From a virus (lineage: Duplodnaviria > Caudoviricetes): a DNA stretch of 55,377 bases. A model generated the notes under the pieces. It worked only from the letters and a program-made list of their open reading frames with translations, made no database searches and had not been told where the DNA came from. The position numbers and the translations under genes were made by a program. Below are positions 20,736-22,972 of this stretch, in pieces. The stretch spans positions 1-55,377 of the IMG/VR virus record IMGVR_UViG_3300023095_000122; one strand, given 5' to 3'. How positions within the stretch are numbered: position 1 is the first letter of the stretch; the number at the start of each line of letters is the position of its first letter.

Positions 20736-21040
20736 TAAACCGGGCTATTACACCCGGTTTTTATCACCCTCACGTGGCTTATTGCCCCTTGCAACGATTT
20801 CGCTCGTCCTGCTATCCCGGCACCTTCGTCCGGGCATCCTGCCATCTGTAATTGCCTGCCTTGCCACTGATCACTTCACCCTTGACGTGGTTAATCAGAA
20901 TCCAAGGACTTTGTCTTTAATGTCTGCCTTGCTTCTTTGTCCTGATGGGTAAGTTAACGCTACTGTAAAGTGCATTCCGCCAGTCAATGTATCACAAGGG
21001 CTTTACTATGCCTGCACTACGTGGATTCCCACTCGCAGGA
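20736..21040 (-). ncRNA. Candidate ~300-nt structured ncRNA
   Basis: ORF-free, GC-enriched, at least five hand-foldable stems, ends in hairpin AAACCGGG-TGTAATAG-CCCGGTTT. Confidence 0.5.
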
Positions 21041-21048
21041 CTTAATAT

Positions 21049-21363
21049 CTACCAATCGGAAGAAGATCCGCCGCCGCCAAAATCACCACCATCAAAACCG
21101 CTAAAGTCTGATGAGCTACTACCTGAATCAGATGAATCGTAAGAAGAACCGCTATCAGGTGTGAAGCTGTCTAACACGCTTATTGCGGTCAACGTATCAA
21201 ACACCGATGAATCATCATTTGCGCTTCTTATAGGCTCATCTCGCTTATATCGGTCAGATGTGACCGTGAAGTTTGCCCTACCTGGAACGAACATAGGTTG
21301 CACCTTAACCTCTTGCTTTTTCTGCTTATCTTTCTTCTTAAAAATTCTTTTAATCCAGTTCAT
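21049..21363 (-). CDS. Ser/Gly-rich phage protein
   Basis: C-terminal GFDGGDFGGGGSSSDW tail. Confidence 0.7.
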   Translation of the reverse strand: MNWIKRIFKKKDKQKKQEVKVQPMFVPGRANFTVTSDRYKRDEPIRSANDDSSVFDTLTAISVLDSFTPDSGSSYDSSDSGSSSSDFSGFDGGDFGGGGSSSDW

Positions 21364-21395
21364 TAGTAATTATTTAAAATGCTTTTATGCCAGTG

Positions 21396-21420
21396 CGGAG
21401 AGTGGGGGATTCGAACCCTC
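21396..21420 (-). pseudogene. Isolated tRNA 3' part (Ser-like T arm and acceptor 3' strand)
   Basis: Minus strand GAGGG-TTCGAAT-CCCCC-ACTCTCC-G; no canonical 5' half at the normal distance. Confidence 0.55.
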
Positions 21421-21683
21421 GGACCCTTTTAGTTTTAAAAATGATTGCTCGGATCTGTTTCGCCTCGCCTGTTCCGATAGTTTTCCAATGGACACAATCA
21501 TTTTGCTTACTTAACAGCGCTATCGAATTTATCTCACCGCCTGTTTACAAGACTTTATCTATCTGGGTTAATCGCCCTACCCATTCAAAACGGAGTACCT
21601 AGTGCACTCACCTGCATCTGCTTTTTAAGAAGCAGCAAACTAACCTTAGGTTCTGCATGCTAAATAGCATGCTACCGACGGTG

Positions 21684-21756
21684 CGGAGAAGAAAGGGATC
21701 GAACCTTTGACCTGAGTGTTAACAGCACCCTTCTCTACCAACTGAGCTACTTCTAC
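21684..21756 (-). tRNA. tRNA-Asn(GTT)
   Basis: Full cloverleaf: GTAGAAG/CTTCTCC acceptor (2:71 mismatch), GGGTG-CTGTTAA-CACTC anticodon arm, TTCGATC loop; CCA not encoded. Confidence 0.85.
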
Positions 21757-21919
21757 TTTTTATCCCCTTTAGTTCGGAAAGGGTCTTTCATACTCATACC
21801 GATACCATTTTACTATCTCAAATGGAAAAACGCCAGACAGCTTCGTACTGACAAACCCGATACCCCTCGCTTTTTAGACAAAGGAGCCTTTCCTGATATC
21901 GGCTTACTTACGCTCCTTG

Positions 21920-21992
21920 TGCACCCTGCTGGAATCGAACCAACGACCAAAAGATTATGAGTCTTCTACTCTACCAACTGAGCTAAGGGAAC
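21920..21992 (-). tRNA. tRNA-CAT, most similar to tRNA-Ile2 (lysidine type)
   Basis: GTTCCCT-TAGCTCAG..GAAGA-CTCATAA-TCTTT..GTTGG-TTCGATT-CCAGC-AGGGTGC-A; body resembles bacterial Ile2. Confidence 0.8.
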
Positions 21993-22071
21993 ATTTGCAG
22001 GTCACAATACACCTGCGGGAGATCCAGTTTATTAAACGCTTATCTGGAAGCACCTAATTGCGTTTGGTTCG

Positions 22072-22258
22072 TGAACAGAGCCGGATTCGAACCGGCACAT
22101 GTGCATTCAACCGTTGACTAAATGGTTATCCGGGGGCGTTAGGTGCATTTGTCATAAAACTACCCGCACATCACCGGTAAAGCGTCTACCGGGATCATTC
22201 GATATCATCAGCAGGAGTGCCCGCCTTTCTCTTTATGACCACTTTCCGCCATCTGTTC
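22072..22258 (-). ncRNA. Expanded tRNA-Leu-like RNA (187 nt) with inserts in the D-loop and anticodon loop
   Basis: Perfect acceptor GAACAGA/TCTGTTC plus A73; perfect T arm GCCGG-TTCGAAT-CCGGC; Leu-type D arm GCGGAA..GGTAGACGC; long variable hairpin. Confidence 0.75.
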
Positions 22259-22368
22259 AAATTTGATAGTCTTTCCTATCAGTCAACCTGCCTCGGTTGG
22301 AGTAGTCCTCCGCGGTACGCCACCCTAACTACTATTCAGGTGATCTACTTATATTCCGCCTAGGAGCG

Positions 22369-22439
22369 CATGAGTACAAGGATTCGAACCCTGATCAATG
22401 GTTTTGGAGACCACTATTCTACCGTTGAACTATACTCAC
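22369..22439 (-). tRNA. tRNA-Trp(CCA)
   Basis: GTGAGTA/TACTCAT acceptor, GTGGT-CTCCAAA-ACCAT anticodon arm, CAGGG-TTCGAAT-CCTTG. Confidence 0.9.
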
Positions 22440-22584
22440 GTGTTGCAGATTCACACCTTACGACTTCTGCTTGCCGGTGGCCTATGTATGATTAGTCGGG
22501 CTATTCATGACGCTTAATTCCCCCATATGATCAAATGAAAAGGTTGCAACCTTCTGCGTCCATTGACCAGCATTTTTGAGCTGT

Positions 22585-22616
22585 AAAAAAAGTGTGCGCC
22601 TTTCAGCAACACACTT
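22585..22616 (-). terminator. Intrinsic terminator inside the tRNA cluster, after tRNA-fMet
   Basis: AAGTGTG-TTGCTGAAAGGCG-CACACTT-TTTTT. Confidence 0.6.
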
Positions 22617-22638
22617 CCCATCTAAACTAACGCTCTCG

Positions 22639-22711
22639 TAGCGTGGAGCGGACTCGAACCGCTGACCTCTAGGTTATGAGCCTAGCGAGCTACCAACTGC
22701 TCTACCCCGCA
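22639..22711 (-). tRNA. tRNA-Met(CAT), initiator-like
   Basis: TGCGGGG-TA-GAGC-AGTTGGTA-GCTC; unpaired 1:72; A11:U24; CTAGG-CTCATAA-CCTAG. Confidence 0.85.
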
Positions 22712-22972
22712 ATGTTGTGAGTGTTCCAACTCACCCGGTTGATCTAACGCATGCAACCTTTACCCACGGACTACAGTTCGGACTGACTGCGCATTTCGCC
22801 TTGCGCTAATAATCGGTGCCCTCTCGACCGGGCTTTTACCTTCTATTACCTCGGCATCCACATAATGAAGGGGATTATTTCTTGAATCGCTTTTCAAAAC
22901 AAAAACAAAGTCACTTCCATGACTTTGTTATCTACCTCACTAATCTCTTTCCCTGATTCAAATGTGCAAAGT

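What the first reader, a model, noticed from the sequence alone, without database searches (positions are those of the whole stretch)
20736..22920. tRNA-punctuated array of structured non-coding RNAs (candidate new system)
Seen: ~2.2 kb with only one credible ORF, clearly more GC-rich than neighbouring intergenic DNA. tRNA or tRNA-like genes alternate with 80-290 nt spacers that fold into multi-stem structures. Each of the five tRNA(-like) 5' ends is preceded within about 5-8 nt by a hairpin (near 21763, 21997, 22264, 22445, 22717). Established: RNase P and 3' processing nucleases cut at tRNA ends. Inference: the tRNAs may act as punctuation that releases several distinct small RNAs with protective 3' hairpins from one transcript, such as decoys or inhibitors of host anticodon nucleases or other RNA-sensing defences.
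Basis: partly seen in the sequence, partly recalled or inferred. Interest (0 to 1): 0.8.

Follow-up and report, generated by a model that had tools for sequence, protein, structure and literature searches.

The report
Phage tRNA island with tRNA-framed RNAs
This stretch is a phage tRNA gene cluster that also carries a long RNA built on a leucine-tRNA frame, of a kind that recurs unannotated in many phages, and two strongly conserved non-coding elements, while about half of the "spacers" are unconserved filler.

Summary
Window 20736-22920 (minus strand) carries four canonical tRNA genes (initiator-like Met, Trp, Met, Asn), one movable ORF, and a hairpin 4-9 nt before every tRNA 5' end.

Single-sequence folding of the spacers is no better than shuffles. 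Two relatives (L052, L074; 72-82% DNA identity) split the spacers into two classes:
- A, C, D, E and F are absent or unalignable.
- Three elements are conserved.

The conserved elements:
1. TL2 (22258-22072, 187 nt) has a tRNA-Leu acceptor, D arm and T arm. A helical domain replaces its anticodon arm, and the D loop carries an extra arm. It belongs to a family of 13 other distinct sequences, 91-233 nt long, found in phage tRNA clusters. The frame shows covariation. Gene finders mostly miss the family, and I found no description of it.
2. G (21043-20761) is a structured RNA ending at the island's terminator (alignment fold z = -3.9; 6 compensatory pairs).
3. B3' (22540-22440) is a leader before tRNA-Trp that is more conserved than the tRNAs beside it.

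The "tRNA punctuation releases functional RNAs" idea is plausible for TL2 and G, unsupported for most spacers, and untested by any RNA data. The anticodon-nuclease decoy idea fits TL RNAs poorly, because they lack anticodon loops.

The parts
22904..22929 (-). Conserved leader hairpin (11 pairs) followed by a U run, upstream of the first tRNA. Likely a 5' stem-loop or attenuator rather than a full terminator.
   Evidence: Terminator-like scan. The same hairpin is present in L052 and L074. In L074 tRNA-Met1 starts about 30 nt after it, which leaves no room for a promoter.
22712..22885 (-). Segment A: variable spacer that ends in hairpin 22734-22717.
   Evidence: Poorly aligned with two deletions in L052. 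Absent in L074, where only 9 nt separate the leader from tRNA-Met1. L052 has a different hairpin at the same place.
22638..22711 (-). tRNA-Met (CAT), initiator-like, with a mismatch at pair 1:72.
   Evidence: ARAGORN. Rfam 61 bits with a non-standard first pair. Compensatory changes in the anticodon and T stems relative to L052.
22594..22614 (-). Terminator-like hairpin followed by U7, directly after tRNA-Met1 (5' part of segment B).
   Evidence: Scan. The stem is kept in L052 and L074.
22440..22540 (-). B3': ultraconserved leader before tRNA-Trp. Includes hairpin 22470-22445.
   Evidence: 94-97% identical to L074 and L052, against 80-92% for the flanking tRNAs. One variable column in alignment columns 137-213 of A4. 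No support for a conserved fold (z = -0.6).
22368..22439 (-). tRNA-Trp (CCA).
   Evidence: 89% identical to Pedobacter tRNA-Trp genes.
22259..22367 (-). Segment C: variable spacer that ends in hairpin 22281-22264.
   Evidence: Unalignable with large indels in L052 and L074. Both relatives have another hairpin at the same place.
22072..22258 (-). TL2: a 187-nt RNA on a tRNA-Leu frame. It has a 7-bp acceptor stem, a D stem, a T arm and discriminator A. An extra arm sits in the D loop, and a roughly 70-nt helical domain replaces the anticodon arm.
   Evidence: Family alignment A1 and covariation. Model R1 scores 72.8 bits, but TL2 was in the training set. The L074 homologue, not in the training set, scores 59 bits. 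Consensus fold with L074 has z = -4.3. Not called by ARAGORN or Rfam.
21993..22071 (-). Segment D: spacer that ends in hairpin 22016-21997.
   Evidence: No counterpart in L074. Hairpin -11.2 kcal/mol; 0.9% of background windows fold as well.
21919..21992 (-). tRNA-Met (CAT), second copy. Absent in L074.
   Evidence: 88-90% identical to Pedobacter tRNA genes.
21757..21918 (-). Segment E: variable spacer that ends in hairpin 21783-21765.
   Evidence: No counterpart in L074. L074 has another hairpin before its tRNA-Asn.
21683..21756 (-). tRNA-Asn (GTT).
   Evidence: 96% identical over 71 nt to L074.
21434..21682 (-). Segment F: lineage-specific spacer that holds the 5' part of TL1.
   Evidence: No counterpart in L074. 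Seen only in near-identical or roughly 88% variants in public runs. Fold z = -0.36.
21394..21537 (-). TL1: decayed derivative of a host-type tRNA-Ser(UGA), with a 66-nt insertion after the 5' acceptor strand.
   Evidence: The 3' 36 nt are 97% identical to tRNA-Ser genes of the genome that holds L024 (Pedobacter nyackensis). The 3' part is missing in one run's variant. No R1 or Rfam tRNA match.
21049..21363 (-). ORF104, a movable small gene inside the island.
   Evidence: PHROG matches of unknown function. A contig of run X2 joins 21043 to 21434 and so lacks it. Absent in L074. No relatives in viral contigs.
20761..21043 (-). G: conserved structured non-coding RNA at the end of the island.
   Evidence: 89% column identity with L074 and four 1-nt indels. 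80 consensus pairs, none broken, 6 compensatory. z = -3.9, and 0 of 200 column shuffles reach 6 compensatory pairs. No Rfam match.
20737..20760 (-). Intrinsic terminator of the island (9-bp stem followed by a U run).
   Evidence: Conserved in L074.

Best explanation
This is a phage tRNA island on the minus strand, from about 23060 to 20737, in a provirus of a tailed phage of Bacteroidota.

Contents:
- Four working tRNA genes: initiator-like Met, Trp, Met and Asn.
- TL2, a long RNA built on a tRNA-Leu body.
- TL1, a decayed tRNA-Ser derivative.
- ORF104, a movable small ORF.
- B3', an ultraconserved leader before tRNA-Trp.
- G, a roughly 285-nt structured RNA that ends at the island's terminator.

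Likely working (inferred, not shown):
- The island is transcribed as one or a few precursors.
- RNase P cuts at each acceptor stem, and 3' processing plus CCA addition finish the ends. This releases the tRNAs and TL2.
- TL2's tRNA frame serves as a processing and stability scaffold for fast-changing arms that cannot decode.
- The hairpin 4-9 nt before each cut site keeps the leader single-stranded and insulated. It would also cap the 3' end of the upstream fragment.

Spacers A, C, D, E and F are replaceable filler between these modules. The whole island is a mosaic of cassettes that differ between close relatives.
For: Shown by tools:
- Phage context: the window holds a terminase large subunit, a portal protein and a major head protein (MCP), and the record is classed as a provirus.
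- Four canonical tRNAs. Compensatory changes relative to L052.
- TL2 frame. 14 sequences, 15 pairs, 97.6% of cells paired, 6 pairs with double-sided changes, 0 of 500 shuffles as high, slid controls 31-46% paired.
- TL2 relatives. Found in 21 of 27 stretches from a pattern scan of viral contigs. Further paralogues in L026, L027-type, L030, L035 and L040. A homologue in L074. One in a bacterial genome at the syntenic place without any canonical tRNA beside it (L082).
- Rfam view. Its tRNA model aligns the acceptor, D and T arms of 8 family members above threshold and skips the anticodon arm, where 35-128 nt lie in the three alignments shown.
- G: z = -3.9 and 6 compensatory pairs, against a mean of 1.8 in shuffles.
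- B3' is 94-97% identical, against 80-92% for the flanking tRNAs.
- Unconserved spacers and cassette indels.
- Hairpins: 12 of 13 units in the three related islands have a hairpin in the best 26% of background windows.

Inferred from recalled knowledge: the processing route, and the role of the RNase P protein on the 5' leader.
Against: - No RNA evidence. No listed sequencing run that holds the stretch is an RNA run.
- The promoter is not identified. Sigma-70-like matches are not above shuffles (7 against 5.7 +/- 2.2), and no TAnnTTTG box (a consensus recalled from memory) lies on the minus strand of 20700-23320.
- Terminator-like hairpins at 22929-22904, 22614-22594 and 21609-21593 may split the island into several units.
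- G and B rest on only two and three sequences.
- 3 of 10 distinct variant sites seen in public contigs fall in predicted G pairs without compensation.
- For the TL2 pair (window and L074), the count of compensatory pairs is not above shuffles: 5 against a mean of 4.7.
- The 3' part of the TL frame is conserved by construction of my search pattern.
- TL payloads share no motif, so nothing points to a common partner.
Confidence: 0.6

Rival explanations
1. Every spacer is a functional small RNA that tRNA punctuation releases and a 3' hairpin protects. These RNAs act as decoys or inhibitors of host anticodon nucleases.
For: - A hairpin lies before each 5' end, kept in position though not in sequence in relatives.
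- B3' and G are conserved.
Against: - A, C, D, E and F are absent or unalignable in L052 and L074.
- Their folds are no better than shuffles.
- No match in 26 other phage loci or in 50,697 phage records beyond the tRNAs.
- TL RNAs lack an anticodon loop.
- There is no RNA evidence.
Confidence: 0.12
2. A decaying tRNA cluster. TL2 and TL1 are tRNA-Leu and tRNA-Ser pseudogenes broken by insertions. B and G look conserved only because the block was exchanged recently between mosaic phages.
For: - TL1 looks decayed, and its 3' part is dispensable.
- The island is mosaic, with many indels.
- ARAGORN and Rfam do not call TL2.
- TL payloads share no motif.
Against: - Covariation keeps all three frame helices over 14 divergent sequences.
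- The inserted arms are well-formed helices whose bases are kept while their tips change.
- L082 keeps a TL as the only RNA gene at that place.
- B3' is more conserved than the tRNAs on both sides in two separate comparisons, which a block transfer does not explain.
- G has compensatory changes.
Confidence: 0.15
3. B3' and G are cis-acting elements rather than free RNAs. B3' would be a promoter, attenuator or leader that controls tRNA-Trp and the genes after it. G would be a 3' untranslated, stabilising or terminating domain of the island transcript.
For: - A terminator-like hairpin with U7 precedes B3'. B3' shows sequence conservation but no fold conservation.
- G always abuts the terminator.
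Against: - No recognisable promoter box in B.
- 77 nearly invariant nucleotides are more than a promoter needs.
- G keeps its place and sequence whether it follows ORF104, tRNA-Gln or segment F, as expected of a self-contained module.
Confidence: 0.13

Closest known systems
Phage tRNA gene clusters (tRNA islands)
   Same: Co-oriented tRNA genes in a tailed-phage genome. The tRNAs resemble the host's: 88-90% identical to Pedobacter tRNA-Trp and tRNA-Met genes.
   Different: More than half of the 2.2 kb is not tRNA. Relatives at 41-58% MCP identity have no tRNA within 10 kb of the MCP gene in 17 of 17 viral loci.
ROOL and GOLLD RNAs (large structured RNAs of phages and prophages, often near tRNA islands; PMC12286853, passages read)
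   Same: Structured non-coding RNA of unknown function placed in or beside a phage tRNA island. GOLLD can carry tRNAs in a linker.
   Different: No Rfam match at E <= 5-10 in the window or L074. G is about 285 nt, much smaller. Only one homologue was found.
tRNA (Rfam RF00005), type II tRNA-Leu
   Same: TL2 has the acceptor stem, D arm, T arm and discriminator A of tRNA-Leu. Its D arm and T arm are almost letter for letter those of host tRNA-Leu genes. Eight family members pass Rfam's threshold.
   Different: No 7-nt anticodon loop. The anticodon arm is replaced by 35-128 nt in the three Rfam alignments shown. TL2 also has an arm in the D loop. TL2 itself does not reach Rfam's threshold.
tmRNA
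   Same: Same topology: the 5' and 3' ends form an acceptor stem next to a T arm, and a long-range helix with an internal domain replaces the anticodon arm.
   Different: ARAGORN calls no tmRNA at default settings. Pair 3:70 is A-U, not the G-U of alanine identity (the identity rule is recalled). The short reading frame that ARAGORN proposes at a lowered threshold is not kept in L074.
Bacterial Y RNA-like YrlA RNAs with a tRNA-like domain (PMC4201824; abstract start seen in the listing)
   Same: A non-coding RNA that mimics the tRNA acceptor, T and D region and lacks a decoding anticodon.
   Different: In YrlA the RNA ends form the Ro-binding stem, not the acceptor stem (recalled). No Rfam match. 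No Ro60-type protein among the 62 window ORFs scanned: none in the 25 of 30 Pfam families listed.
allo-tRNAs and polycistrons of irregular tRNAs (PMC5389517, passages read)
   Same: Non-canonical tRNA-like genes found in phage tRNA clusters and metagenomes. Proposed there as suppressors or regulatory RNAs.
   Different: Those have 8/4 or 9/3 acceptor/T branches and normal anticodon loops. TL RNAs have a 7/5 branch and no anticodon loop.
Stable RNAs 'species 1 and 2' in the tRNA cluster of phage T4 (recalled; no paper read)
   Same: Small stable RNAs of unknown function, co-transcribed and processed with phage tRNAs.
   Different: Could not be compared, because no sequence was at hand.
Engineered tRNA scaffolds for RNA expression (PMC3753655; search listing only)
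   Same: A foreign RNA grafted in place of the anticodon arm of a tRNA, so that the cell processes and stabilises it like a tRNA.
   Different: That is a laboratory design. Here the arrangement is natural and is only inferred to work this way.

Membership tests
Phage tRNA gene cluster | Two or more co-oriented bona fide tRNA genes in a phage genome | tested here: met
   4 tRNAs on the minus strand. Terminase, portal and major head genes in the window.
tRNA (Rfam RF00005) | Score at or above the gathering threshold of 29 bits | tested here: not met
   This row concerns TL2. No match at E <= 5 in the window. The L074 homologue scores 17 bits. Eight other family members score 29.7-47 bits.
tRNA (Rfam RF00005) | Acceptor stem, D stem and T arm with covariation | tested here: met
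   15 pairs, 97.6% paired, 6 with double-sided changes, 0 of 500 shuffles as high.
tRNA (Rfam RF00005) | Anticodon stem with a 7-nt loop | tested here: not met
   The consensus fold of TL2 with L074 has a 6-bp long-range helix that encloses about 60 nt. Rfam skips the anticodon arm in relatives. ARAGORN finds no intron-bearing tRNA with its intron option at its default score threshold.
tmRNA | tRNA-like domain plus a conserved tag reading frame, detected by ARAGORN or Rfam | tested here: not met
   No call at default settings. The weak call at a lowered threshold is not conserved in L074.
ROOL / GOLLD | Match to the Rfam covariance models | tested here: not met
   No match at E <= 5 (window) or E <= 10 (L074 island).
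YrlA / Y RNA-like | Rfam match, and a neighbouring Ro60 (Rsr) gene | tested here: not met
   No Rfam match. No such family among the 25 of 30 Pfam families listed for 62 ORFs.
Substrate of leucyl-tRNA synthetase (tRNA-Leu identity) | Discriminator A73 and the tRNA-Leu D-loop/T-loop core (features recalled from the literature) | not testable with these tools
   A73 and a D arm equal to the host tRNA-Leu D arm are present. In TL2 the D loop is interrupted by a roughly 50-nt arm. Charging needs an assay.
T4 species 1 / species 2 RNAs | Sequence or structure likeness to the T4 RNAs | not tested
The resemblance is in context only, and is recalled.

The most novel reading that the evidence does not exclude
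TL RNAs are a widespread, so far undescribed class of natural tRNA-scaffolded RNAs. Phages graft fast-evolving helical arms onto a tRNA-Leu body that RNase P, the CCA enzyme and perhaps leucyl-tRNA synthetase still accept. This would make stable, non-decoding and possibly leucylated RNAs that act on host factors which read the tRNA body, such as defence nucleases, the synthetase, RNase P or EF-Tu. G and B3' would be further trans-acting RNAs of the same island.
Probability: 0.25. Interest if true: 0.85.

Novelty: new variant of a known kind. Interest (0 to 1): 0.62.

Why it matters
Phage tRNA islands are usually read as codon-supply or tRNA-replacement cassettes, and the DNA between the tRNAs is ignored.

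Here the most conserved pieces of the island are not the tRNAs. They are a tRNA-framed long RNA, a leader and a terminal structured RNA.

The tRNA-framed family recurs in small temperate phages and in jumbo phages. It sometimes occurs in several copies per island. tRNA finders miss it or mislabel it.

If these RNAs are processed like tRNAs, they would be a natural version of the laboratory tRNA scaffold. They would also be a new entry point to phage-host conflicts around tRNA.

The result also gives a practical rule for annotation: look for acceptor-plus-T-arm closures longer than 95 nt in tRNA clusters.

Tried and rejected
Searches that found nothing useful:
- No RNA holder was listed among the 13 runs that hold parts of the stretch, so expression could not be examined. 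Parts of the stretch without contig cover are not interpreted.
- ORF104 has no relatives in viral contigs.
- MCP relatives in viral contigs (17 loci) and genomes (6 loci) carry no comparable island. The only tRNA is one tRNA-Met in L022.
- blastn against 50,697 phage records hits only the tRNA parts.
- Exact-pattern scans for B and G found only L074. The five other B hits are coding DNA of GC-rich phages.
- BLAST of the island against five Bacteroidota genomes gave nothing significant for B or G, so there is no host mimicry or complementarity.
- No DNA likeness between G and the region after the TL in L082.
- A k-mer search for a motif shared by 24 TL payloads found only the D-arm words.
- The GGAAAGAC loop motif is enriched in L074 (4 matches, 0 of 200 shuffles reach 4) but not in the window (3 matches, 16 of 100 shuffles reach 3).
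- Pfam on 62 window ORFs: no RNA ligase, synthetase, Ro60 or reverse transcriptase among the 25 of 30 families shown.

Readings rejected:
- Intron-bearing tRNA: ARAGORN's intron option adds nothing at its default score threshold.
- tmRNA: only weak calls at a lowered threshold, not conserved.
- Coding for B: a 35-aa ORF loses its start codon in L074 and changes mostly non-synonymously. A 14-codon ORF in B3' keeps its frame but leaves 42 invariant nucleotides unexplained (my reading).
- Coding for G: four 1-nt indels.
- Bacteroidota-type promoter box TAnnTTTG (recalled consensus): none on the minus strand of 20700-23320.

- Literature searches found no description of the TL family.
- The catalogue of candidate viral structured RNAs (PMC10690425, passages read) may list related motifs in supplements that I could not see.
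- Kin of a virus record cannot be drawn.
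Full report
**Context.** The window is a 55,377-base virus record classed as a provirus, estimated 60% complete. It encodes a terminase large subunit, a portal protein and a major head protein (MCP). PcfJ/PcfK-like proteins, a lysozyme and HTH regulators are also present. MCP relatives in genome contigs all lie in Bacteroidota: Spirosomataceae, Chitinophagaceae, Pleomorphovibrio, Pedobacter and Prevotella. Nearly all genes, and the whole finding, lie on the minus strand.

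**Check of the observation.** ARAGORN and Rfam agree on four tRNA genes:
- Met (CAT) 22711-22638
- Trp 22439-22368
- Met (CAT) 21992-21919
- Asn 21756-21683

The first Met has a non-standard 1:72 pair and an initiator-like body. A sixth T-arm/acceptor remnant lies at 21429-21394.

Only ORF 21049-21363 has family support. GC is 0.41-0.51 in the region, against 0.28 in the adjoining intergenic DNA.

Jointly they exceed background (Fisher p = 0.005).

The statement that the spacers fold into multi-stem structures is not more than chance on single sequences: z = -0.59, -0.36 and -1.22. Rfam finds nothing but tRNA.

**Relatives and the conservation map.** Distant relatives (MCP 41-58% identical) have no tRNA within 10 kb of the MCP gene in 17 of 17 viral loci. 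Two closer relatives were found.
- L052 is a 5.4-kb metagenome contig. Its MCP is 94% identical in protein and its DNA about 82% identical. It ends at the start of the tRNA-like RNA.
- L074 is a 14.9-kb viral contig. Its coding DNA is 70-83% identical. It holds a whole island.

| Element | In the relatives |
|---|---|
| Leader | About 72-77% identical overall; the hairpin at 22929-22904 is identical |
| tRNA-Met1 | 80-91% identical |
| B, 3' half | 94-97% identical |
| tRNA-Trp | 92% identical |
| TL2 | 66% identical overall; frame nearly invariant, inner parts replaced |
| tRNA-Asn | 91-96% identical |
| G | 80-89% identical |
| A, C, D, tRNA-Met2, E, F, ORF104 | Absent or unalignable |

L074 has a tRNA-Gln instead.

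Contigs of public runs show the same cassette behaviour:
- One joins 21043 directly to 21434, with six other letters between. That variant drops ORF104 and the T-arm remnant.
- Others skip 22616-22806, 22631-22887, 22264-22901 (only 20 letters on one side) and 20963-21566.

**The tRNA-framed RNA (TL2) and its family.** A degenerate pattern taken from its T arm and 3' acceptor strand matched 27 stretches of viral contigs.
- 21 of the 27 are the same kind of element, giving 13 distinct sequences. One type occurs in six loci and another in four.
- The other six were left out of the alignment: two ordinary tRNA-Tyr genes (L029, L048), L041, L044 (cut by the contig end), L046 (66 nt) and L051 (another D region).

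Members are 91-233 nt long and lie in tRNA clusters on the tRNA strand. At default settings ARAGORN calls only one of the 13 distinct sequences, labelling it a 92-nt tRNA-Asn.

All members share a tRNA-Leu frame: a 7-bp acceptor stem, U8 G9, the D arm of tRNA-Leu, a T arm and discriminator A. The D and T arms are almost the same letters as in host tRNA-Leu genes.

In the 14-sequence alignment, the 15 frame pairs behave as follows:
- 97.6% of cells are paired.
- 6 pairs show double-sided changes.
- 0 of 500 shuffles reach this.
- Slid controls are 31-46% paired.

The 3' letters are conserved by construction of my pattern. The 5' strand, D arm and T stem are not.

A model of the frame (R1) found more copies in the same islands: L026 twice, the L027 type twice, L030, L035 and L040. 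It also found the L074 homologue at 59 bits, which was not in the training set.

In 151 genomes of the family of a Pedobacter genome, every genome matched through its ordinary tRNA-Leu (80-86 nt, 50-55 bits). Among the 150 rows listed, one match is long (194 nt, 64.7 bits; L082). A further 180 matches were not listed. L082 lies at the syntenic place of a related prophage, with no canonical tRNA beside it.

Rfam's tRNA model passes its threshold for 8 family members. In the three alignments shown, it aligns the three frame arms and skips the anticodon arm, where 35, 52 and 128 nt lie. The window's TL2 fails that threshold. It carries, besides, a roughly 50-nt arm in its D loop, as L026 and L074 also do.

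Between the window and L074:
- The base of the D-loop arm is kept and its tip is replaced.
- A 6-bp long-range helix (columns 88-93 with 155-160) is kept through three double changes.
- The consensus fold has z = -4.3.
- The count of compensatory pairs is not above shuffles, because so many columns differ.

The seven differences shown for a 95%-identical contig of run X1 lie in loops or at a terminal G-U pair. This is my mapping, and it is weak evidence. Payloads share no motif.

**TL1.** The stretch 21537-21394 aligns with host-type tRNA-Ser(UGA).
- The last 36 nt are 97% identical to two tRNA-Ser genes in the genome that holds L024.
- The 5' acceptor strand is recognisable, and a 66-nt insertion follows it.
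- The D and anticodon arms are degenerate.

One variant lacks its 3' part and L074 lacks it altogether. I read it as a decayed gene or a recombination scar.

**G.** From 21043 to the terminator, G is far better conserved than the neighbouring genes. Four single-base indels exclude coding.

RNAalifold gives 80 pairs, none broken, with 6 double changes. These include a 4-bp hairpin in which two adjacent pairs are both exchanged. Against 200 column-shuffled alignments, z = -3.9, and none reaches 6 compensatory pairs (mean 1.8).

Of 10 distinct variant sites in public contigs, 7 are unpaired and 3 hit predicted pairs. No Rfam family matches. Exact-word scans found no homologue other than L074.

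**B.** After tRNA-Met1 comes a terminator-like hairpin with U7, kept in all three phages. Then follows B3'. In alignment columns 137-213 only one column varies among the three phages.

B3' is more conserved than the tRNAs on either side, so a shared recent transfer does not explain it. It shows no fold signal (z = -0.6) and no convincing coding signal. It has no likeness to five Bacteroidota genomes. Its role is open.

**Hairpins.** In the three related islands, 12 of 13 units have an upstream hairpin within the best 26% of background windows (9 of 10 when repeated sequences are counted once). The sequences differ between phages at the same place.

One 34-nt hairpin module of L052 recurs in L043 before another gene. 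Loops of the GAAAGA or GUAAG type recur.

In 13 other phage loci, 20 of 48 tRNAs reach the best quarter, a milder tendency.

**Mechanism.** What is shown: the gene content, the frame covariation, the conservation map and the cassette mosaic.

What is inferred:
- RNase P and 3' processing release the tRNAs and TL2.
- The tRNA frame acts as a processing and stability scaffold for arms that cannot decode.
- The hairpins insulate each cut site and would cap upstream fragments.
- G is a self-contained RNA.

The number of transcripts is unknown. No promoter is identified, and three internal terminator-like hairpins exist.

The canonical tRNAs may still replace host tRNAs that defences cleave. That concept is recalled from the literature and was not tested here.

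**Comparison with what is known.** Structured RNAs beside phage tRNA islands are known (ROOL and GOLLD; PMC12286853, passages read). So are irregular tRNA-like genes in phage clusters (PMC5389517, passages read). The topology of TL RNAs recalls tmRNA, and their use recalls laboratory tRNA scaffolds (PMC3753655, search listing only).

Six full-text searches found no description of this family. A catalogue of viral structured RNA candidates mentions tRNA-like motifs (PMC10690425, passages read). Its supplementary tables, which I could not see, may contain related entries.

**Limits.**
- There is no RNA evidence.
- Only one or two homologues exist for G and B.
- The family was collected with a pattern that fixes its 3' end.

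Noticed in passing
window 27925-28320 (-); L002, L007, L010, L012, L015, L016: The homologue of the 131-aa gene just upstream of the MCP gene matches in two pieces, with a gap that ranges from about 120 to about 290 nt between them, in 6 of 17 viral relatives. This could be an insertion, an intron or a split gene.
   Followed up: no
window 21394-21429: 36 nt are 97% identical to the 3' end of tRNA-Ser genes of Pedobacter nyackensis. The 5' two-thirds of the same tRNA-like stretch are decayed. This uneven pattern is what an attachment-site exchange would leave. It also hints at a Pedobacter-like host.
   Followed up: partly
window 22487-22531 (-): A 14-codon ORF in B3' keeps its frame and stop codon in L052 and L074, with ATG changed to GTG in L074 and 2 of 5 changes synonymous. 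It may be a chance frame or a leader peptide.
   Followed up: partly
L052 about 5355-5395; L043 about 2255-2300: An identical 34-nt module with a hairpin lies before the tRNA-like RNA in L052 and before a tRNA-Met in L043, a phage that shares no detectable protein with the window. L074 has a near copy.
   Followed up: partly
L025 5934-6026 (-): ARAGORN calls a 93-nt 'tRNA-Pro'. Read by eye, it is a 76-nt tRNA-like gene with a 10-nt anticodon loop. It lies next to that phage's 91-nt TL RNA.
   Followed up: no
L027 2267-2387 (same in L031, L033, L037, L042, L050): In jumbo-phage contigs the TL RNA holds a second, internal T-arm-like hairpin. Two or three TL copies lie in one island of 15-22 tRNAs.
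   Followed up: partly
L074 11868-12175: The motif GGAAAGAC occurs three times within 310 nt, each time as the loop of a hairpin. Two of the three lie directly before tRNA-Asn and tRNA-Gln.
   Followed up: partly
window 22368-22439 and 21919-21992: The phage tRNA-Trp and the second tRNA-Met are 88-90% identical to tRNA genes of two Pedobacter genomes. They look like captured host genes.
   Followed up: no
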